This document shows, in pieces, positions 31,232-49,237 of a stretch of 64,000 bases of DNA. The number at the start of each line of letters is the position of its first letter. The first letter of the stretch is position 1. Both the position numbers and the translations under genes were made by a program. Where the stretch lies: assembly GCA_002344785.1 (NCBI GenBank), contig DDUL01000036.1:120063-184062 (forward strand), given 5' to 3'. Under the pieces are notes generated by a model. The model was not told where the DNA came from. It searched no databases and saw only the letters and a program-made list of their open reading frames with translations. This DNA comes from Bdellovibrionaceae bacterium UBA2339 (GTDB lineage: Bacteria; Bdellovibrionota; Bdellovibrionia; Bdellovibrionales; JAMPXM01).

Positions 31232-33664
31232 TTAGGCGGCGGAAGCGGCCGCAGAGTCTTTGCCCTTTTTGCCTGTGCCGCCCTTGCTGGTCGGCTGACG
31301 CTTGGATTTGCCAAGCTTCTCATCCAGGGCCATATGCAGAACTTCATCCAAGTGCTCGACGTAGACAAAGTTGAGCTGCTGGCGGAACTCCTCGGGGATG
31401 TCTTGCACATCCTTTTGGTTCTGGAAGGGGATCAGCACCGTCTTCACGCCGTGGTTCAGAGCGGCCAAGGCCTTCTCACGAATTCCACCGACGGGAAGCA
31501 CTCGACCTGAGAGCGTCACTTCGCCTGTCATCGCGACATCGGCGCGAATCGGCGTGTCGGTCATCAGCGAGATGATCGCTGTCGCCATGGTGATGCCTGC
31601 ACTGGGTCCGTCCTTCGGCACAGCACCCGCGGGGATGTGCACGTGGGCTTGCCAGTTGTCGACCCAATCCTCGTCAATTCCAAGTTCCTTGGCGTGCGCA
31701 CGAGCGTAGCTCATCGCGGCCTGCGCGGACTCTTTCATCACATCGCCCATCTGGCCTGTGAGAACAAAGCCGCCCTTGCCTTTCATCTTCAAAGCCTCGA
31801 TGTAGAGCACTTCGCCGCCGGCCTGAGTCCAAGCCAAACCTGTCGCGATCCCCACTTGCGCCTCTTTGAGCTTCTCGTCGCGAATGAATCGCGGCGCACC
31901 CAAGAGATCCGCGACCTTCTCGGCGGTCACGACGACTTTCTCCGTTTGTCCCATCACAACGCGCTTAGCGACTTTGCGGCAGACTGAACCGACTTCGCGC
32001 TCGAGATTTCGCAGACCAGCTTCACGCGTGTAGCCTGAGATCAAGTAGCGGATACCGTCTTCTTTGAACTCGATGTTCTCGTCCGTTACACCGTTCGTCT
32101 CCATCTGGCGACGAATCAAATGCTTCTTGGTGATCAACACCTTGTCGTTCTCGGTGTAGCCCGGAATCTGAATCAGCTCCATACGATCGCGAAGCGCTGG
32201 CGGAATATTTTCCACCACGTTCGCTGTCGCGATGAACAAGACGTTCGACAGATCGAAGTCCACGTTCAAGTAGTGATCGCGGAAGGCATGGTTCTGTTCA
32301 GGATCCAGAACTTCGAGCATGGCCGCCGAAGGATCGCCGCGGTAGTCGCTACCGAGTTTGTCGATCTCGTCGAGCACGATCACGGGATTTCGCGTCTTCA
32401 CTTGCTTGAGGGCCTGGACGATCTTGCCGGGCATCGCGCCGACATAGGTTCGTCGATGACCGCGAATTTCGGCTTCGTCCTTCACGCCGCCCAAGGCGAC
32501 GCGGAAGTACTCGCGACCCATGGCTCGAGCGATGGACTTACCGAGCGAAGTTTTGCCGACGCCCGGAGGTCCCGCGAAACACAGGATCGGACCTTTGCGT
32601 GAGTCAGTTTTGAGTTTGCGAACCGCCAAGAATTCAAGGATGCGGTCCTTAGCTTTTTGCAGTTCATAGTGATCTTCGTCCAACACCTGCTTGGCGCGAT
32701 CGAGATCGAGGTTGTCCTCGGTCGACTTGCCCCAAGGCAGATCCACCATCCAATCCAGATAGGTGCGGAGCATCGAGGCTTCGCTCGCGTCCGGATGCAT
32801 GCGCTCCAAGCGACCCAACTGCTTGAGAGCTTCGTTGAGTACCGGCTCGGGCATGCCGGAGTTGCGAACTTTTTCGCGCAACTCTTCCAGCTCTTCGCCC
32901 TTTTGATCTTGTTCGCCCAGTTCATTCTTAATCGCGCGCATTTGTTCGCGAAGGAAGTACTCGCGCTGCGACTTATTCATTTCGTTGCTCGACTGCGAGC
33001 GGATCTTGGTCTGCATCTGCAGAACTTCAAGCTCGCTCGTCAGAATTTCTGAAACCAACTTCAGTCGCGCCTTAGGGTCCAAGGTCTCCAGCACGCGTTG
33101 CGCATCGGCGACTTTCAAACCTAAGTTGGAGGCGATCAAGTCGGCCAAGCGACCCGGCTCTTGGACATCGTCGAGGATCAAAAGAATGTCGGGAGACAGT
33201 GAGCGGCCCAAGGCGATGATCTTTTCCAGCTGCTCGCGAGCGGTGCGGATCAGCGCTTCGGTTTCAACGCCATCGGCGCCCGGCGCCTTGGCTTCTTCGT
33301 CGACCACGCGCTCAACACCGACTTCGAAGTTCGGCGAAGATTTCACGAAACGGGTGATGCGGCCTTTGGCCTCGCCCTGAATCAGAATCTTCACACGACC
33401 ATCAGCGAGTTTACGCATGCGCATGATTCGCGCGATGGTGCCGACGGTGTAGATCGAATCTTCAGTCGGATTCTCTTCAGTGATTTCACGTTGTGAGGCG
33501 AGGAAGATCAGGCGGTTCTTGCCGAGCGCTTCTTCCACAGATCGGATCGAGGCTTCGCGTCCGACAAAGAGGGGAAGAATCATGTAGGGAAACACCACAA
33601 TATCGCGAACGGGCAACATCGGAAGTGTTTCTGGGATATCCAGGGCCTGATTATCAAACGCCAT
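31232..33664 (-). CDS. lon: ATP-dependent Lon protease
   Basis: LAN domain LPVRDIVVFPYMILPLFVGR. Walker A GPPGVGKTS. Protease Ser in PKDGPSAGIT. Start taken at MAFDNQ (33664). Confidence 0.96.
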   Translation of the reverse strand: MAFDNQALDIPETLPMLPVRDIVVFPYMILPLFVGREASIRSVEEALGKNRLIFLASQREITEENPTEDSIYTVGTIARIMRMRKLADGRVKILIQGEAKGRITRFVKSSPNFEVGVERVVDEEAKAPGADGVETEALIRTAREQLEKIIALGRSLSPDILLILDDVQEPGRLADLIASNLGLKVADAQRVLETLDPKARLKLVSEILTSELEVLQMQTKIRSQSSNEMNKSQREYFLREQMRAIKNELGEQDQKGEELEELREKVRNSGMPEPVLNEALKQLGRLERMHPDASEASMLRTYLDWMVDLPWGKSTEDNLDLDRAKQVLDEDHYELQKAKDRILEFLAVRKLKTDSRKGPILCFAGPPGVGKTSLGKSIARAMGREYFRVALGGVKDEAEIRGHRRTYVGAMPGKIVQALKQVKTRNPVIVLDEIDKLGSDYRGDPSAAMLEVLDPEQNHAFRDHYLNVDFDLSNVLFIATANVVENIPPALRDRMELIQIPGYTENDKVLITKKHLIRRQMETNGVTDENIEFKEDGIRYLISGYTREAGLRNLEREVGSVCRKVAKRVVMGQTEKVVVTAEKVADLLGAPRFIRDEKLKEAQVGIATGLAWTQAGGEVLYIEALKMKGKGGFVLTGQMGDVMKESAQAAMSYARAHAKELGIDEDWVDNWQAHVHIPAGAVPKDGPSAGITMATAIISLMTDTPIRADVAMTGEVTLSGRVLPVGGIREKALAALNHGVKTVLIPFQNQKDVQDIPEEFRQQLNFVYVEHLDEVLHMALDEKLGKSKRQPTSKGGTGKKGKDSAAASAA

Positions 33665-33964
33665 GCGTCCTCCGCGACCCACTCGAGCGGCTGCGACCTG
33701 CAGCTTGTCGTATGAGGGATCGACTGTTCTAAAAAGCTTTTCGGAGAACCTTTAAAATCCCTTTACGCCGACAGCACCGCGCAAAGGTCCAATTTTGCGG
33801 GAAAACGCCTCGGTCTTCAGGCTAGATTTACAGGGGCCAGTGTGAATTGGGTCGATTGAGGAAACTCGCAACTGGCGTGAATTGTGGCGCGGGCCTCAGG
33901 GAAATTGTGAAGTGTTCGAGGCCGCGGCGACGCCAACGCGTCGAGGGCCATAAAGCGCTCGCCT

Positions 33965-34079: not shown

Positions 34080-34583
34080 TTAAGCGTGAACAGGCTCGAG
34101 GCGCTCGCGCTGCTCTTGCTCTTCTTTGCAAGCCAAGCAGAGGCTGGTCACGGGACGCGCGCGCAACCGCTCAAGCCCGATGGGCTCTTCGCAAACTTCG
34201 CACAGGCCGAAGCGTCCCTCTTCGATGCGGCTCAGAGCGCGATCGATCTTCGGCAACATTTGCGTCGCACGTTCCTTAATGCGAATTTGCAAATTCAAAT
34301 CAATCTCACCGCTGGCGAGATCACCTTCATCGCCGCGCAAGCCGCCGGGAGACAGACCTTCACTGCGGAAGCCGCTCACATGATTGAGATGTTCGTCGCG
34401 CAGTCGGAGCAACTGATCTTTCAAATCGCAAATCTCATTGCGGGTCAGTTCGCGAGGCTCCACCCAACGCGCTGGAGTGGCGAGACGTGAACGCGAAGAG
34501 TGTTGGCTCTGTGTGGGTGCCGGCGAAGTTCCTCGGCGCGATTTCGAAGTGCTGGTCGACTTTGAAGATGTGAGTTTCGGCAT
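34080..34583 (-). CDS. dksA: DksA/TraR-family C4 zinc-finger transcription factor
   Basis: CEVCEEPIGLERLRARPVTSLCLACK (CxxC-x17-CxxC). Coiled-coil tip DEGDLA (DxxDxA). Ser/Thr/Arg-rich N-terminal extension. Confidence 0.85.
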   Translation of the reverse strand: MPKLTSSKSTSTSKSRRGTSPAPTQSQHSSRSRLATPARWVEPRELTRNEICDLKDQLLRLRDEHLNHVSGFRSEGLSPGGLRGDEGDLASGEIDLNLQIRIKERATQMLPKIDRALSRIEEGRFGLCEVCEEPIGLERLRARPVTSLCLACKEEQEQRERLEPVHA

Positions 34584-35086: not shown

Positions 35087-35497
35087 TTAACCACGCGCAA
35101 ATCGCTGCTGAAGTGCTTCGCGAATTTCAGCGCCCTCAATCGAAAGTCGAGTCCACGGCAACACGCGAAGGCGCTCTTCTTCAATCGGCTCTTCCGTCTC
35201 TTCGCAAATTCCAAACGAGCCTTGTTCGATGCGAGCGAGAGCGGCCTCGATCTCCATCAATTGATTTTGAATTCGCTGTTGTGAACTGAGGAAGGCGTTC
35301 TCGGCCAAAAGATCCATGGTGAGATCACCTTCATCGCTGCCGCCGCGATCGCGAGATTCAAACTCACGCGCCGCCTGACGCGCGCGATTGAGCAAGTCGG
35401 CTTTGGACTCGAGCAAGCGTGTGCGGCATTCGCGAACGAAGGCTTCCGTGAGTCCTTGAGCTTTATGTTGGCGCGTCGGTCTTTGGATCTTCTGCAT
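35087..35497 (-). CDS. DksA-like protein with degenerate (one-Cys) zinc finger
   Basis: The same architecture with tip DEGDLT, but the finger reads ICEETEEPIEEERLRVLPWTRLSIEG. Start taken at MQKIQRP (35497). Confidence 0.7.
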   Translation of the reverse strand: MQKIQRPTRQHKAQGLTEAFVRECRTRLLESKADLLNRARQAAREFESRDRGGSDEGDLTMDLLAENAFLSSQQRIQNQLMEIEAALARIEQGSFGICEETEEPIEEERLRVLPWTRLSIEGAEIREALQQRFARG

Positions 35498-35682
35498 ATG
35501 AGTCGGGCCTCCCACCCGTGAGCAAAGCACTCTGAGTTTTCCCCTCAGCCCCGAGGGGCCGATGTCTCGAGGTCGAACTTCCTGGACCTCGAACGCCGCT
35601 AAGACAGACGCCGACGTCTCGGCGGTTAGGAGGCAACCGCCGATCGTGCATCGAAAATTCTAATGGGGGAGAGTCGGGGCCC

Positions 35683-43648: not shown

Positions 43649-44260
43649 ATGTCGACGAAGACCATATTCGTCTCCAGCCGCGAGTACTTTGCCGAAGTGG
43701 TGGACTCGGCACTGTCGTCTCGACGGATGGACACATTTCCATCAGCCAAAGACTATCTGATTCGCTTGCTCGAGTTCCATGTGCCTGCCGAGCATCTGTT
43801 CGACGAGTTCGACGAACAAGGTCGCCGTCAGCGATCAACTCTGGCCGAGGCGTACTTGCGCGCCATGAGCTCCGAGCCCGCGCAGCGCGTGGAACTTCTC
43901 AAGCGCACGGCGGATCGCGCGCTCTACATCAGCGGCTTCTTTTCCGATTCACTGCAAAGAAAACTGGTCGATGTGGACTATTATGCCGACATGGGTGTCG
44001 CGGCCTACTCGTCACTGGCGGAAAACGTGCGCGACGACCTGTCGACACGAGTTTATCGCGAGTACTCGCGCCGTTTCACCGAATTCATGGATGTCTTGGC
44101 CTGGATCAGCTCGCAGTCGAAGCAGCAGAGCGAGGCCAACATACTGCGTCTGTACGAGGCCTTCGCGCGCACCGGTTCGGAGTATGCGCGCGAGCAGCTC
44201 TTGGAACGCGGGCTGATCGCGGTACCGCTGTCGGAGCTTGAAAAGTCCAAAAAGCAGTAG
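43649..44260 (+). CDS. hypothetical protein
   Basis: 203-aa ORF with protein-like, helical composition. No motif recognised. Confidence 0.55.
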   Translation: MSTKTIFVSSREYFAEVVDSALSSRRMDTFPSAKDYLIRLLEFHVPAEHLFDEFDEQGRRQRSTLAEAYLRAMSSEPAQRVELLKRTADRALYISGFFSDSLQRKLVDVDYYADMGVAAYSSLAENVRDDLSTRVYREYSRRFTEFMDVLAWISSQSKQQSEANILRLYEAFARTGSEYAREQLLERGLIAVPLSELEKSKKQ

Positions 44261-44297
44261 CTGACAGCGCCCCGCCGCGCCCGTTAGACTCACGAAC

Positions 44298-44723
44298 ATG
44301 TTTGATATCGGCTTCAGCGAAATGATTTTGATCGCCGTGATCGCGCTTGTCGCGATTGGGCCAAAACAACTTCCTGAGGTCGCGCGCACAGTCGGAAAAT
44401 TCATTGGCGAGTTCAAACGCATGTTCGGCGACGTCGCCACCAGCTTCATCGACGCCCGTGACGGCGCGGACCGCGAGCTGCGCAAGTTCAAAGACGATGT
44501 GAAGGGGTCGGTGTTCTCGCAAGCGAGACATGAGGACCAGTCGCAGGCGAGACACGATGACCAGCCGCAAGCGAGACATGAGGACCAGCCGCAGGCGCAT
44601 GCAGCGACTCAGCCCGAGTCAGCAACTCACGCCCCCGAGACCCACGCTTCCGAGTCACCGGCAGCTCATTCGCCAGTGGCCTCGAGCCAATCCTCTGCAA
44701 GCGACTCAGGTGAAAAGTCATGA
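44298..44723 (+). CDS. tatB: twin-arginine translocase subunit TatB
   Basis: The N-terminus MFDIGFSEMILIAVIALVAIGPKQLPE closely matches, by recollection, the E. coli TatB N-terminus (MFDIGFSE...). Followed by tatC with an ATGA overlap. Confidence 0.85.
   Translation: MFDIGFSEMILIAVIALVAIGPKQLPEVARTVGKFIGEFKRMFGDVATSFIDARDGADRELRKFKDDVKGSVFSQARHEDQSQARHDDQPQARHEDQPQAHAATQPESATHAPETHASESPAAHSPVASSQSSASDSGEKS
44520..44600 (+). repeat. 24-bp tandem repeat (3.4 copies) inside tatB
   Basis: Units at 44520-44543, 44544-44567 and 44568-44591, plus a partial copy. They encode QARHEDQS / QARHDDQP / QARHEDQP / QAH. Confidence 0.9.
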
Positions 44724-45490
44724 GAGACCCGCGCGATGAAAACGGCGTCGATCAACTGACATTGACGGATCATCTTGCCGAGCTGCGCACGCGCATTATC
44801 CGCTCGCTCTATGCCATCGTCGTTGGCGTCGGAATCGCGTTTTTCTACTCGGATGTTTTGTTCGACCTGGTTCGCCAACCCGTGCAGCAGTTTTTGCCCG
44901 AGGGTGGTTTGGTGTTCACACACCCCATGGATAAATTCATGGCCCACTTCAAACTTTCAGGTGTGGCGGGCCTCATCCTCACCTGTCCGTTTTGGCTGTA
45001 TCAAGCTTGGTGCTTCGTCGCGCCCGGTCTGTATCGACATGAGCGTAAATATGCGATGGCGTTCATCGCGACCTCGAGCGCGCTCTTTGTGATCGGTGCG
45101 AGCTTCGCTTACTTTTTGGTGTTGCCGGCGGCCTTCGATTTTCTCTTCACCTTTGGTGGCACCACAGATCGCCCGTTGATCACCATCGCGGAGTACTTTT
45201 CGTTTTTTGCCACCATGGTTTTGGTCTTTGCGGTTTGTTTTGAATTGCCCGTCGTGATGGTGATTCTGGGTCTGTTGGGGATTCTGAAGGCCGAAGGACT
45301 TCGTTCCACGCGGCGTTATGCGATTGTTGTGCTGTCTGTCCTATCCGCGGTCGTGACGCCGCCCGATGTGATCAGCATGATGCTGCTTTTTGTTCCTCTT
45401 CTCATTCTTTATGAAATCTCGATTCTCCTGATTGCGGTGATCGAACGCCGTCGAGCCGCGGCCTCGACGATTGGCGCCGCAGAGCATTAA
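44720..45490 (+). CDS. tatC: twin-arginine translocase subunit TatC
   Basis: 256 aa, 6 TM. LTDHLAELRTRIIRSL at the N-terminus is typical of TatC. Confidence 0.92.
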   Translation: MRDPRDENGVDQLTLTDHLAELRTRIIRSLYAIVVGVGIAFFYSDVLFDLVRQPVQQFLPEGGLVFTHPMDKFMAHFKLSGVAGLILTCPFWLYQAWCFVAPGLYRHERKYAMAFIATSSALFVIGASFAYFLVLPAAFDFLFTFGGTTDRPLITIAEYFSFFATMVLVFAVCFELPVVMVILGLLGILKAEGLRSTRRYAIVVLSVLSAVVTPPDVISMMLLFVPLLILYEISILLIAVIERRRAAASTIGAAEH

Positions 45491-45508
45491 TCCTCAAGCC
45501 AATTCGAC

Positions 45509-45537
45509 TTGAATCGCAATCTGGCCCTGCTTAGACT
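45509..45537 (+). promoter_or_regulatory. candidate sigma70-type promoter of the histone-fold gene
   Basis: TTGAAT - 17 nt - TAGACT, about 70 nt upstream of the ATG. Confidence 0.4.
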
Positions 45538-45609
45538 TTTTTTGATGATCGCGGCACAAGCCTTCGGTCGGGTTCAACGTCTCGGGATTCATCTTCTTGA
45601 GGGGGTAAT

Positions 45610-45804
45610 ATGGCGGACGTACTCGTTGTGACGAGCAAAGTGAAAAAACTCATCAAAGAAAAAGGCGAGTGCAACACCTCGGCGGAAACCATTGATGTAC
45701 TCAGCAAGGCGATCGAGCGTCTCTGCCTGAAGGGCATCGAGGCCGCAAAGGCTGACGGTCGTAAGACTGTTATGGCTCGCGACATCGTCATCGATCACAT
45801 CTAG
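45610..45804 (+). CDS. bacterial histone-fold protein (Bdellovibrio Bd0055/HBb-like)
   Basis: 64 aa. MADVLVVTSKVKKLIKEKG...ETIDVLSKAIERLCLKGIEAAKADGRKTVMARDIVIDHI. The A..GRKT..A.DI signature resembles archaeal HMf (HAGRKTIKAEDI). Confidence 0.8.
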   Translation: MADVLVVTSKVKKLIKEKGECNTSAETIDVLSKAIERLCLKGIEAAKADGRKTVMARDIVIDHI

Positions 45805-45900
45805 ATCCATGATTTCTTGATATTGTGTTGGGGAGTCTGCCCATTGAGCTGTAACGGCTCAGGCCCGAAGGGTCGGTCAGCATCTCTCGTGCACCTAAGG

Positions 45901-45945
45901 ATCGCGCCGAACTCTCAGTTTTGAGAACGGCGCGATTTTGTTTTT
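45901..45945 (+). terminator. Rho-independent terminator of the histone-fold gene
   Basis: ATCGCGCCG...CGGCGCGAT long hairpin with inner TCTCA/TGAGA pairing, followed by TTTGTTTTT. Confidence 0.8.
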
Positions 45946-46083
45946 CCCGGCATCCTCATCGAGGCGTCGGGCCTGTAAGTCGTGCACAGCCAACACGCGC
46001 CGATGATTTCAAATGGACAGCTCCGAGGCCACGGCCCTAAACCAGTGCATCACTATCAAAGTGAGTACGAAAGTGAGGCCAAA

Positions 46084-46620
46084 ATGTTTTGGGGACTAAC
46101 TTTTCTCGCCGTTGGACTGCTGCTGCTTTTGCAAACCGTCTTGAAGGTGGATCTGCCGATCTTGCGCATTCTGTTCAGTCTGGCGCTGATCTACTTGGGC
46201 GTAAAAATGATGTTCGGAACTTTCGGAATCAGCATCAATGGCGCGAAGTTCGAAAAAGTCGCGACGGCCACGGATGTGGTGTTCACCGAAGGCGATCTCA
46301 GCGCGCGCAGCGATGATCGGGTCAATCGCAACTTCAACACCGTCTTCGGTCAGTCGCGCTTGGATCTCAGCAGTGTCGAGCCCACAGATCTCGAAAAGGG
46401 CGTCGAGATTTCCGCTGTGTTTGGCAAAACCGAAGTGCAAACTCCTCGTGAGTTGCCGCTTGTGGTGGAAAGCAACACGGCCTTTGGAAAGATCGATGTA
46501 CGCGGCGATAAAACCGGCGCGCTTGGCAACGGCATCTATCGATCACCCGGCTTCGATGCCTCGAAGCCGCATTTGAAAATCGAAGCGAACTCGGTCTTCG
46601 GCGAGATCGTGATTCGCTAA
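46084..46620 (+). CDS. membrane protein with LiaF-like C-terminal domain
   Basis: Two N-terminal TM helices (FWGLTFLAVGLLLLL, ILFSLALIYLGVKMMF). Repeated beta motifs SAVFGKTEV / NTAFGKIDV / NSVFGEIVI, as in the LiaF/DUF2154 family. Confidence 0.55.
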   Translation: MFWGLTFLAVGLLLLLQTVLKVDLPILRILFSLALIYLGVKMMFGTFGISINGAKFEKVATATDVVFTEGDLSARSDDRVNRNFNTVFGQSRLDLSSVEPTDLEKGVEISAVFGKTEVQTPRELPLVVESNTAFGKIDVRGDKTGALGNGIYRSPGFDASKPHLKIEANSVFGEIVIR

Positions 46621-46668
46621 GGCTCTTCAGTTTCTTCTCCGGAAAAATATGAAGCTGCGGAACGCGGG

Positions 46669-49237
<2,569 letters not shown>

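What the first reader, a model, noticed from the sequence alone, without database searches (positions are those of the whole stretch)
45509..45945. Monocistronic bacterial histone-fold gene
A 64-aa protein (…ETIDVLSKAIERLCLKGIEAAKADGRKTVMARDIVIDHI) has the size and the A..GRKT..A.DI signature of archaeal HMf-type histones. It closely resembles, from memory, Bdellovibrio bacteriovorus Bd0055, which was reported in 2023 as an abundant nucleoid histone with an unconventional DNA-binding mode. The gene has its own candidate promoter (TTGAAT-17-TAGACT), a strong RBS (GAGGGGG) and a long terminator hairpin, consistent with very high expression. It also serves as a taxonomic marker for the window.
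Basis: partly seen in the sequence, partly recalled or inferred. Interest (0 to 1): 0.65.

Follow-up and report, generated by a model that had tools for sequence, protein, structure and literature searches.

The report
Bdellovibrio-type bacterial histone gene (HBb orthologue)

Summary
Window 45610-45804 (+) encodes a 64-aa protein that is 57/64 identical (E 2e-32) to the crystallised B. bacteriovorus histone Bd0055/HBb. A high-confidence AlphaFold model (pLDDT 92) superposes on the HBb crystal structures at TM 0.88-0.96 and rmsd 0.7-1.2 A. All published DNA-contact, RD-clamp and dimer-core residues are identical. The residues that prevent tetramer formation (A48, I61, no Phe at 45) are retained.

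The gene is flanked by:
- a candidate promoter, TTGAAT-17-TAGACT. It is weak by consensus (8/12), but the same architecture recurs at orthologous loci far above chance.
- a very strong Shine-Dalgarno site.
- a strong intrinsic terminator, whose position is conserved in about 65 of 80 relatives.

"Monocistronic" is therefore likely but unproven, because no terminator separates the gene from tatC upstream.

It belongs to the "bacterial dimer" class of alpha3-truncated histones. It is not an HMf-type nucleosomal histone.

More than 160 Bdellovibrionales species carry near-identical orthologues, and the family's distribution is published. It is already known, and interest is low.

Side observations:
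- The promoter-5'UTR-CDS block evolves roughly 6-fold or more slower at silent sites than its neighbours.
- The gene is convergently paired with ligA in 70 of 80 loci.

The parts
45509..45537 (+). Candidate sigma-70-type promoter: -35 TTGAAT (45509-45514), 17-nt spacer, -10 TAGACT (45532-45537)
   Evidence: Read directly from the sequence. It matches the consensus at 8/12, below the scan threshold. The same TTGNNN-N16-18-TAGAYT architecture lies upstream of the histone gene in 10 of 81 loci, against a background of about 0.003 per 200 nt, and this is the only instance in the window. 26 of 29 bases are identical to L001 although the flanking silent sites are saturated. No transcription start site data exist.
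45538..45609 (+). 5' leader (the inferred transcription start is near 45544) containing the Shine-Dalgarno GAGGGGG at 45599-45605
   Evidence: 71 of 72 bases are identical to L001/L088, whereas the 3'UTR is unalignable. There are 1-2 differences from L082-L084. The SD:anti-SD duplex is -12.7 kcal/mol, in the top 0.3% of random 20-mers. The predicted fold is no better than shuffles, z = -0.05.
45610..45804 (+). Histone-fold gene, 64 codons plus TAG; orthologue of Bd0055/HBb
   Evidence: ORF confirmed. 57/64 identical to the PDB HBb chains, E 2e-32. AlphaFold model pLDDT 92, TM 0.88-0.96 to 9EZZ/8FVX/8CMP. pN 0.007 and pS 0.21 against L001.
45805..45900 (+). 3' untranslated stretch with two small hairpins; not conserved
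   Evidence: Folded. About 25-30% different from L082-L084 and unalignable with L001/L088. No Rfam match.
45901..45945 (+). Intrinsic terminator: stem ATCGCGCCG / CGGCGCGAT with an inner 5-bp stem, then TTTTGTTTTT
   Evidence: Hairpin dG is -24.7 kcal/mol. The stem is conserved in L001 and L082-L084 while the surrounding sequence is not. A hairpin plus T-run lies 50-140 nt after the stop codon in about 65 of 80 orthologous loci.
44298..45490 (+). Context: tatB-like gene (44298-44723) and tatC (44720-45490) directly upstream on the same strand, with no terminator before the histone promoter
   Evidence: Pfam PF02416 (E 1e-11) and PF00902 (E 2e-72). The scan of 44200-46700 lists no hairpin in the tatC-histone spacer itself (45491-45537). 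The only plus-strand hits nearby are two chance-level 5-bp hairpins, at 45373-45385 inside the tatC 3' end and at 45568-45585 inside the putative 5' leader. This neighbourhood is shared by only a subset of relatives.
46084..46620 (+). Context: LiaF-like membrane protein gene lying between the histone gene and ligA
   Evidence: Pfam PF09922, E 3e-11. It is present in the window's close relatives L001 and L081-L084/L088. It is absent in most other loci, where ligA abuts the histone gene.
46669..48825 (-). Context: NAD-dependent DNA ligase ligA, convergent with the histone gene
   Evidence: Pfam ligase adenylation, OB, zinc-finger, HhH and BRCT domains. ligA lies convergently downstream of the histone gene in 70 of 80 loci, with a gap under 200 nt in 49.

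Best explanation
The gene encodes the orthologue of the Bdellovibrio bacteriovorus histone HBb (Bd0055) in an uncultured Bdellovibrionaceae-like bacterium.

By homology, the 64-aa chain folds into a truncated histone fold: alpha1 at 8-19, a short alpha2 at 25-48, a one-turn alpha3 and an extended C-terminus. It pairs head-to-tail into a homodimer through the alpha2 core (L31, I35, L38, V11, I59).

The dimer binds DNA without sequence specificity. It contacts minor-groove phosphates through the paired L1-L2 loops (N22, S24, K52, T53, R57, braced by the R51-D58-D49 clamp) and the start of alpha1 (T8, S9, K10, K12, K16).

It lacks the His/Phe/Leu residues that build the four-helix bundle, having A48, A45 and I61 instead. 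It therefore should not form tetramers or wrap DNA into (hyper)nucleosomes. Instead it acts as a very abundant nucleoid-associated protein that bends DNA as single dimers. At high density it may coat DNA; which of these modes holds in vivo is unresolved in the literature.

Expression is most likely from its own promoter (45509-45537) through a 65-72-nt leader with a very strong ribosome-binding site. It would end at the intrinsic terminator at 45901-45945, giving a transcript of about 400 nt.

Shown here: ORF, homology, fold, residue conservation, expression signals and their comparative conservation. Inferred: dimerisation, DNA binding, abundance and the transcript ends.
For: Sequence and fold
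- 57/64 identity, E 2e-32, to the HBb/Bd0055 crystal-structure chains.
- AlphaFold model at pLDDT 92.1 with H8-19, H25-48 and a one-turn H56-58. This matches the published description of a shortened alpha2 and a single-turn alpha3.
- Foldseek gives TM 0.88-0.96 and rmsd 0.7-1.2 A to 9EZZ, 8FVX, 9F0E and 8CMP. The next hits are the alpha3-truncated histones HTkC and HLp, then nucleosomal histones at TM about 0.6.

Functional residues
- All ten DNA-contact residues listed by Hu et al., the R51-D58-D49 clamp and the dimer-core residues are identical in the window protein. They are invariant or nearly so in 22 and 40 relatives.
- The positions whose mutation (A48H, S45F, I61L) restores wrapping are A48, A45 and I61 here.

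Function of the orthologue
- Bd0055 ranks 12th of 2,125 proteins by abundance and is the top protein of the nucleoid fraction. It could not be deleted.

Expression signals
- The promoter architecture recurs at orthologous loci.
- SD duplex of -12.7 kcal/mol.
- Terminator of -24.7 kcal/mol, positionally conserved.

Silent-site rate
- pS is 0.00-0.02 against 0.31-0.53 in neighbours (L082-L084), and 0.21 against 0.57-0.72 (L001/L088).
- This is the pattern known for the most highly expressed bacterial genes (established knowledge on codon-usage selection and Ks).
Against: - No biochemical, transcript or protein data exist for this organism.
- Seven residues differ from Bd0055: D3, E20, C21, R37, I43, A45 and I64. 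One of them (45) lies at a position used in the tetramer-restoring triple mutant, although Ala is common there across the family.
- The in-vivo binding mode of HBb itself is disputed: straight nucleohistone filament versus bending.
- The promoter is only 8/12 to consensus and was not picked up by the generic scan.
- No terminator separates tatC from the gene, so read-through transcripts are possible.
- Codon usage of the gene is not visibly extreme. The low silent-site rate is therefore not fully explained by codon selection.
Confidence: 0.93

Rival explanations
1. Same protein, but its physiological mode is the 'nucleohistone filament'. Dimers bind end-on through a single L1-L2 interface and pack at about one dimer per 2.5 bp. 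This encases straight DNA in a protein sheath instead of bending it.
For: - The crystal structure of Bd0055 with 35-bp DNA shows this arrangement. AUC shows more than 60 dimers per 147 bp, and there is no FRET between DNA ends.
- The window protein keeps the N-terminal tail (ADVL versus AEVL) and has the same net charge by residue count from the sequences.
- Very high abundance would permit dense coating.
Against: - Hu et al. 2024 obtained two other co-crystal forms plus tethered-particle and molecular-dynamics data that show about 84 degrees of bending by single dimers. They argue that the filament may be a high-density or crystal-packing state.
- Nothing in the sequence of this window discriminates between the two modes.
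Confidence: 0.3
2. The gene is not an independent transcription unit. It is mainly expressed as the last gene of a tatB-tatC-histone operon, and the TTGAAT-17-TAGACT match is fortuitous.
For: - The gene is on the same strand as tatBC, with only 119 nt between the tatC stop and the ATG.
- No convincing terminator lies in that gap.
- The promoter match is 8/12, below the scan threshold.
Against: - The tatC linkage is absent in most orthologous loci, including all B. bacteriovorus strains.
- The TTGNNN-17-TAGAYT pattern recurs 40-77 nt upstream of the ATG in about 7 independent lineages, against about 0.2 expected.
- The other clade has its own conserved TTGTCA-N14-TGn-AAaCCT element at the same place.
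- Sequence identity to L088 jumps from 0.66 in the tatC 3' end to 0.85-0.98 from the -35 hexamer onwards.
Confidence: 0.15
3. It is a eukaryote-like NF-YB/HAP3-type transcription-factor subunit, as some NCBI records name the homologues. On this view it acts in gene-specific regulation with a partner histone-fold protein.
For: - The Pfam hit is to CBFD_NFYB_HMF (PF00808).
- Some database names read 'NFYB/HAP3 family transcription factor subunit'.
Against: - The Pfam score is at threshold (21.6 vs 21.4), and that family also covers archaeal histones.
- No partner or paralogue lies in the window.
- The 89%-identical orthologue is a homodimeric, non-specific, hugely abundant nucleoid protein.
- The structural match to NF-Y chains is only TM about 0.6.
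Confidence: 0.02

Closest known systems
HBb / Bd0055 of Bdellovibrio bacteriovorus HD100 (PDB 8FVX, 8FW7, 8CMP, 9EZZ, 9F0E); 'bacterial dimer' category of the alpha3-truncated histone family (Schwab et al. 2024)
   Same: - Same length (64 aa) and 89% identity.
- Same predicted fold, at rmsd 0.7-1.2 A.
- Identical DNA-contact residues, RD clamp and dimer core.
- The same absence of tetramerisation residues.
- A stand-alone small gene followed by an intrinsic terminator, with ligA convergent downstream.
   Different: - Seven substitutions: E3D, Q20E, M21C, Q37R, V43I, S45A and L64I. These make it closer to the family consensus than HD100 is.
- The host genome is about 56% G+C, against 44-49% G+C in the loci fetched from B. 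bacteriovorus and Bdellovibrio sp. isolates (about 50% for HD100 from my own memory).
- The upstream neighbour is tatBC.
- A different promoter type (TTGAAT-17-TAGACT instead of TTGTCA-N14-TGn-AAACCT) and a longer leader (about 65-72 nt against about 35 nt).
- A LiaF-like gene is inserted before ligA.
Face-to-face alpha3-truncated histones: HTkC of Thermococcus kodakarensis (9F2C). HLp of Leptospira perolatii (9QT0-2) is a close structural relative; Schwab et al. report FtF histones as common in Leptospirales, but I did not check how HLp itself is classified.
   Same: Truncated alpha3, short alpha2 and the RxT...D loop-2 motif. TM is 0.78-0.88 to the model. Sequence E-values are 7e-6 for HTkC and 4e-3 for HLp.
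   Different: Only 36-41% identity. FtF histones are defined by a torus-shaped tetramer that depends on conserved Arg/Asn residues. According to Schwab et al., the bacterial-dimer class lacks these.
Archaeal nucleosomal histones HMfA/HMfB/HTkA (1B67, 1A7W, 5T5K)
   Same: Histone-fold topology, the RKT loop-2 motif, the RD clamp and a basic DNA-binding ridge. Per dimer, the bending angle is similar in MD simulations.
   Different: About 27-31% identity and TM about 0.6. Alpha2 is one turn shorter and alpha3 has one turn instead of three. There is no His49 four-helix-bundle contact and no sprocket arginine, so no tetramers or hypernucleosomes form. The protein falls below the NCBIfam archaeal-histone cutoff.
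HU/IHF-type bacterial nucleoid-associated proteins
   Same: Proposed functional analogy: a small, abundant, dimeric, non-specific DNA bender.
   Different: An unrelated fold. In B. bacteriovorus, HU is present but less abundant in the nucleoid fraction than the histone.

Membership tests
Bacterial dimer histones (HBb/Bd0055 type, alpha3-truncated histone family) | Close sequence relationship to Bd0055/HBb (the category is defined by sequence clustering) | tested here: met
   57/64 identical, E 2e-32, full-length alignment. More than 1,100 homologues, with the best 120 at 84-98% identity.
Bacterial dimer histones (HBb/Bd0055 type, alpha3-truncated histone family) | Histone fold with alpha2 about one turn shorter than in nucleosomal histones, and alpha3 reduced to about one turn | tested here: met
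   AlphaFold model at pLDDT 92.1 with H8-19, H25-48 (24 residues), H56-58 and then an extended tail. TM 0.88-0.96 and rmsd 0.7-1.2 A to the HBb crystal structures.
Bacterial dimer histones (HBb/Bd0055 type, alpha3-truncated histone family) | RKTV loop-2 motif with the RD clamp (R51-D58, reinforced by D49) | tested here: met
   D49, G50, R51, K52, T53, V54 ... R57, D58 are present. R51, T53 and D58 are invariant in 40 diverse relatives.
Bacterial dimer histones (HBb/Bd0055 type, alpha3-truncated histone family) | Conserved T8-S9-K10 at the start of alpha1 and alpha1 lysines (K12, K13, K16) that contact DNA | tested here: met
   All are present in the sequence and invariant in alignment A1. The residue list comes from PMC11317129 and PMC10627809.
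Bacterial dimer histones (HBb/Bd0055 type, alpha3-truncated histone family) | Lack of the residues that build the dimer-dimer four-helix bundle (His at 48/49, Phe45, Leu61) | tested here: met
   The window protein has A48, A45 and I61. The Bd0055 A48H/S45F/I61L mutant is needed to restore wrapping.
Bacterial dimer histones (HBb/Bd0055 type, alpha3-truncated histone family) | Homodimer in solution, with non-specific DNA binding and bending | not testable with these tools
   The structure tool predicts monomers only, and no biochemistry is possible. Inferred from 89% identity and identical interface residues.
Bacterial dimer histones (HBb/Bd0055 type, alpha3-truncated histone family) | Very high abundance and nucleoid association | not testable with these tools
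   Indirect evidence only: a strong SD, its own promoter and terminator, and a silent-site rate 6-fold or more lower than in neighbours.
Archaeal nucleosomal (HMf/HTk-type) histones | Score above the curated cutoff of the archaeal histone model | tested here: not met
   NCBIfam NF043032 scores 32.2 bits against a cutoff of 50. Pfam PF00808 is only at threshold, 21.6 vs 21.4.
Archaeal nucleosomal (HMf/HTk-type) histones | Full-length alpha2 and three-turn alpha3, the tetramerisation His49 and the sprocket arginine R19 | tested here: not met
   The model shows a short alpha2 and a one-turn alpha3. A48 replaces the His. The sprocket arginine is reported missing from Bd0055, and the window protein has no arginine in alpha1 or loop L1 (residues 8-24: K18, G19, E20). 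TM is only about 0.56-0.6 to 1A7W and 1B67.
Face-to-face (FtF) alpha3 histones | Torus-shaped tetramer mediated by conserved Arg/Asn at the end of alpha2 | not tested
Sequence identity to HTkC is only 38-41%, and the literature places HBb relatives outside this class.

The most novel reading that the evidence does not exclude
The promoter-leader-CDS block (45497-45804) may be constrained at the nucleotide level beyond what the protein and codon usage require.

- The 72-nt leader is 71/72 identical to a relative whose neighbouring genes are saturated at silent sites.
- The leader is significantly more conserved than the gene's own silent sites (1/72 vs 9/43 differences).
- The gene's codon usage is not obviously extreme.

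The most novel reading not excluded is that the leader, and possibly the mRNA body, carries an undescribed post-transcriptional control or mRNA-stabilising element for histone dosage, for example autoregulation by the histone. Together with the deeply conserved convergent pairing with ligA, this would point to a replication-coupled histone supply system in Bdellovibrionales.

The alternatives are ordinary expression-linked selection, or recombination and sweeps at the locus.
Probability: 0.15. Interest if true: 0.5.

Novelty: already known. Interest (0 to 1): 0.2.

Why it matters
Bacterial histones were a real surprise when they were characterised in 2023-2024. This locus, however, adds only one more orthologue to a family already mapped across the Bdellovibrionota, and its exact protein sequence is already present on 15 public contigs.

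Its practical value is as a reliable marker that the window comes from a Bdellovibrionales-type predator lineage. It is also a clean example of the expression architecture of the gene: its own promoter, a strong SD and a terminator.

Three comparative side-results might be useful to groups working on HBb regulation:
- two lineage-specific promoter types;
- a leader and silent sites that evolve much more slowly than the neighbours;
- the conserved convergent partner ligA.

None of these changes what the gene is.

Tried and rejected
- Generic promoter/terminator scan. I therefore judged both by folding and by recurrence at orthologous loci.
- Rfam scan of the whole window at gathering thresholds: no RNA family anywhere, so the leader and the 3'UTR match nothing known.
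- Folding of the putative leader: MFE -24 kcal/mol, z = -0.05 against shuffles, so there is no evidence for a special structure.
- Scan of JGI metagenome contigs for a 22-nt leader word: no match. More relatives came instead from exact-protein look-ups.
- First AlphaFold run, with 22 near-identical sequences: pLDDT 64.6, and Foldseek TM about 0.57 to HBb. I replaced it with a 40-sequence alignment that included 45-66%-identical relatives from the representative search.
- Paralogue search by tblastn in the window: nothing better than E = 0.54. A Bd3044-like second histone cannot be assessed from 64 kb.
- Origin proximity. In five complete Bdellovibrio chromosomes the gene lies 44-48 kb from coordinate 1. 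The window, however, starts with ATP-synthase genes and not dnaA, so this could not be tested here.
- Recombination as the sole cause of the low silent-site divergence. I judged this less likely because the divergences keep the same tree order as the flanks, scaled down about 6-fold or more, and because the conserved block ends exactly at the stop codon in two independent comparisons. It is not excluded: L085 is a mosaic contig.
- Alternative ORFs overlapping the gene (40 aa on the + strand from TTG 45509; 86 aa and 73 aa on the - strand) were rejected as spurious. The homologues and the pN/pS ratio support only the 64-aa frame.
Full report

Yes. Window 45610-45804 on the + strand is an ATG-initiated ORF of 64 codons.

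The flanking elements are at the stated places:
- TTGAAT at 45509-45514, a 17-nt spacer and TAGACT at 45532-45537.
- GAGGGGG at 45599-45605, 4 nt before the ATG.
- A G+C-rich hairpin at 45901-45936, followed by TTTTGTTTTT up to 45945.

The span given in the finding (45509-45945) is therefore exactly -35 hexamer to T-tract.

**2. What is it?**

*Sequence.* A phmmer search of all PDB chains gives a full-length match to the Bdellovibrio bacteriovorus histone Bd0055/HBb (8FVX, 8FW7, 8CMP, 9EZZ, 9F0E). The E-value is 2e-32 and 57 of 64 residues are identical.

Far weaker matches follow: HTkC (7e-6), HmvA, an Asgard histone, Leptospira HLp and HMfA/B. Pfam reports CBFD_NFYB_HMF only at threshold (21.6 vs 21.4 bits). 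The NCBIfam archaeal-histone model scores 32 bits against a cutoff of 50.

*Structure.*
- A first AlphaFold run with a shallow alignment was poor (pLDDT 64.6).
- With 40 sequences, including 45-66%-identical relatives, the model reached pLDDT 92.1.
- That model has helices at 8-19 and 25-48, a single turn at 56-58 and an extended C-terminus.
- This is the published description of the HBb crystal structure: alpha2 one turn shorter and alpha3 a single turn.
- Foldseek places the five HBb/Bd0055 entries first, at TM 0.88-0.96 and rmsd 0.7-1.2 A.
- Next come the alpha3-truncated histones HTkC and HLp (TM about 0.8-0.88), then nucleosomal histones (TM about 0.6).

**3. Residue-level check against the literature.**

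- Hu et al. (PMC11317129) list N22, R57, S9, T53, T8, S24, K10, K12, K52 and K16 as the DNA-contacting residues. They give R51-D58 plus D49 as the clamp, and L31, I35, L38, V11 and I59 as the dimer core. All of these are identical in the window protein and invariant or nearly so in relatives.
- Hocher et al. (PMC10627809) showed that A48H + S45F + I61L is needed to make Bd0055 wrap DNA. The window protein has A48, A45 and I61.
- The seven differences from HD100 (D3, E20, C21, R37, I43, A45, I64) mostly move it towards the family consensus.

The protein therefore belongs to the 'bacterial dimer' category of the alpha3-truncated histone family (PMC11390915). It is not an HMf-type nucleosomal histone.

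**4. How it most likely works.**

The inference rests on homology with an 89%-identical, structurally and biochemically characterised protein.
- It should be a homodimeric, sequence-non-specific DNA binder.
- It should use the L1-L2 loops and the start of alpha1 on minor-groove phosphates.
- It should be unable to tetramerise, and so unable to form (hyper)nucleosomes.

In B. bacteriovorus the orthologue is the 12th most abundant of 2,125 proteins and the most abundant protein of the nucleoid fraction. It resisted deletion in about 280 attempts. Its transcript peaks late in the growth phase.

Whether it bends DNA as single dimers or encases straight DNA at high density is unresolved. This sequence cannot settle the question.

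**5. Expression architecture.**

*Promoter.* The promoter is only 8/12 to the sigma-70 consensus, and the generic scan did not list it. Comparative evidence nevertheless supports it.
- TTGNNN-N16-18-TAGAYT lies upstream of the histone gene in 10 of 81 loci. Nine of these lie 40-77 nt from the ATG; the L004 match lies 138 nt away.
- The background is about 0.003 per 200 nt, and this is the only instance in the 64-kb window.
- The carriers are, apart from L004, the loci that also have tatC upstream.
- The Bdellovibrio sensu stricto clade has a different conserved element at the same place. It is TTGTCA-N14-TGn-AAaCCT followed by TTT, which reads as an extended -10 promoter.

*Ribosome-binding site.* The SD:anti-SD duplex is -12.7 kcal/mol, in the top 0.3% of random 20-mers and the strongest of eight window genes tested. 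This assumes a canonical 16S tail.

*Terminator.* The hairpin dG is -24.7 kcal/mol. Its stem is conserved in close relatives while the surrounding 3'UTR is not. A hairpin plus T-run follows the stop codon within 50-140 nt in about 65 of 80 orthologous loci.

*Caveat.* 'Monocistronic' is therefore the best reading. However, tatC ends 119 nt upstream on the same strand without a terminator, so some read-through cannot be excluded.

**6. Distribution and novelty.**

- A scan of one genome per species found at least 162 relatives. The best 80 are 80-98% identical, and all come from Bdellovibrionales or related uncultured lineages (MAG titles include Pseudobdellovibrionaceae, Bdellovibrionia and Oligoflexia).
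- The closest is a Bdellovibrionaceae MAG (L001) at 98%.
- The 5.8-billion-protein search gave 1,104 hits.
- The 50%-clustered library gave 467 clusters, including doublets and N-terminally extended forms.
- The exact window protein is already on 15 public contigs. One of them (L081) is identical to the window over 3.2 kb.
- Hocher et al. already reported Bd0055 homologues in 67% of Bdellovibrionota genomes, with high amino-acid conservation.

The finding is thus correct but already known.

**7. Things learned on the way.**

*(a) The promoter-leader-CDS block is much more conserved at the DNA level than anything around it.*

| Comparison | Neighbouring genes (pS) | Histone gene (pS) | Leader and 3'UTR |
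|---|---|---|---|
| Window vs L082-L084 | 0.31-0.53 | 0.00-0.02 | Leader and promoter have 2 differences |
| Window vs L001/L088 | 0.57-0.72 (saturated) | 0.21 | Leader is 71/72 identical; 3'UTR cannot be aligned |
| Window vs more distant relatives | 0.60-0.88 | 0.62-0.90 | Leaders unrelated |

- The divergences keep the same tree order as the flanks, scaled down about 6-fold or more.
- The conserved block ends exactly at the stop codon in both comparisons.
- This favours a uniformly lower silent-site rate, as in the most highly expressed bacterial genes, over recombination.
- Two points leave room for an RNA-level constraint. Codon usage is not visibly extreme, and the leader is even more conserved than the gene's silent sites.
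- One short contig (L085) is a mosaic of two lineages with the junction inside the gene. It is either a real recombinant or an assembly chimera.

*(b) ligA pairing.* The histone gene is convergent with the NAD-dependent DNA ligase gene in 70 of 80 loci, with less than 200 nt between them in 49. In the window a LiaF-like gene sits in between. Hocher et al. do not mention a ligase.

*(c) No paralogue* lies in the window.

**8. Verdict.**

The novelty rating is 'already known' and interest is low (0.2). The residual novel reading, a dosage-control element in the hyperconserved leader or mRNA, is possible but unproven (probability about 0.15).

Noticed in passing
window 45497-45804, compared with L082-L084, L088/L001 and L085: The promoter-leader-CDS block is hyperconserved at the nucleotide level. 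Histone pS is 0.00-0.02 against 0.31-0.53 in neighbours (L082-L084), and 0.21 against 0.57-0.72 (L001/L088). The leader is 71/72 identical while the 3'UTR is unalignable, and identity drops sharply exactly at the stop codon. Codon usage is not obviously extreme.
   Followed up: partly
window 45610-48825; loci L001-L080: The histone gene is convergent with the NAD-dependent DNA ligase gene ligA in 70 of 80 Bdellovibrionales loci. The gap is under 200 nt in 49 of them, often with an A-tract/hairpin/T-tract that could terminate both genes. In the window a LiaF-like gene (46084-46620) lies in between. This pairing is not mentioned in Hocher et al..
   Followed up: partly
upstream 160 nt of the histone gene in L002-L080: There are two lineage-specific promoter architectures. 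The mostly tatC-linked loci have TTGNNN-N16-18-TAGAYT, with leaders of about 40-77 nt. The Bdellovibrio sensu stricto clade has a strongly conserved TTGTCA-N14-TGn-AA(A/C)C(C/G)T followed by TTT(T)A. This reads as an extended -10 promoter with a leader of about 30-38 nt.
   Followed up: partly
L085 (JGI 3300016664, 1,265-nt contig), gene at 957-1151: This is a mosaic contig. The upstream region and the first 35 nt or so of the CDS resemble the L016-type lineage. The rest of the CDS is identical to the window, and the 3'UTR is like L082. It is either a natural recombinant with a junction inside the conserved gene or a chimeric assembly.
   Followed up: no
window 44518-44597 (within the tatB-like gene 44298-44723): A 24-nt tandem repeat of 3.3 copies encodes (S/P)QARH(E/D)DQ units in the C-terminal tail of the TatB-like protein. 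This stretch (44530-44709) is the least conserved coding segment against relatives (identity 0.33-0.58), and the protein length varies between relatives (126, 129 and 141 aa).
   Followed up: no
window 43649-44260 (+): A 203-aa ORF with no Pfam match lies immediately upstream of tatB. It is 98% identical in L001 (pN 0.02 despite saturated silent sites) and co-occurs with tatBC in most loci that have the tat genes (10 of the 15 with a tatC hit). It is a conserved protein of unknown function linked to the Tat genes.
   Followed up: no
proteins P0121, P0130, P0133-P0157 and others from the representative search: The 50%-identity library holds 467 clusters related to this histone. They include doublets with two histone folds (for example P0121, 133 aa, 60% identical per fold) and forms with N-terminal extensions up to about 290 aa. 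This is consistent with the published diversity of bacterial histones.
   Followed up: no
window 34080-34583 (-) and 35087-35530 (-): Two adjacent ORFs of 167 and 147 aa lie next to a Lon-like protease ORF (31232-33682, identified by eye and not checked). Their C-termini look DksA/TraR-like by eye. The first has CxxC...CxxC. The second has lost most of the cysteines. They were not checked against any library.
   Followed up: no
window 1-64000: The whole 64 kb contains no tRNA gene and no Rfam family at gathering threshold. G+C is uniform at 54-58%, with mostly positive GC skew on the + strand. The window begins with ATP synthase gamma and beta genes and a complex I cluster.
   Followed up: no
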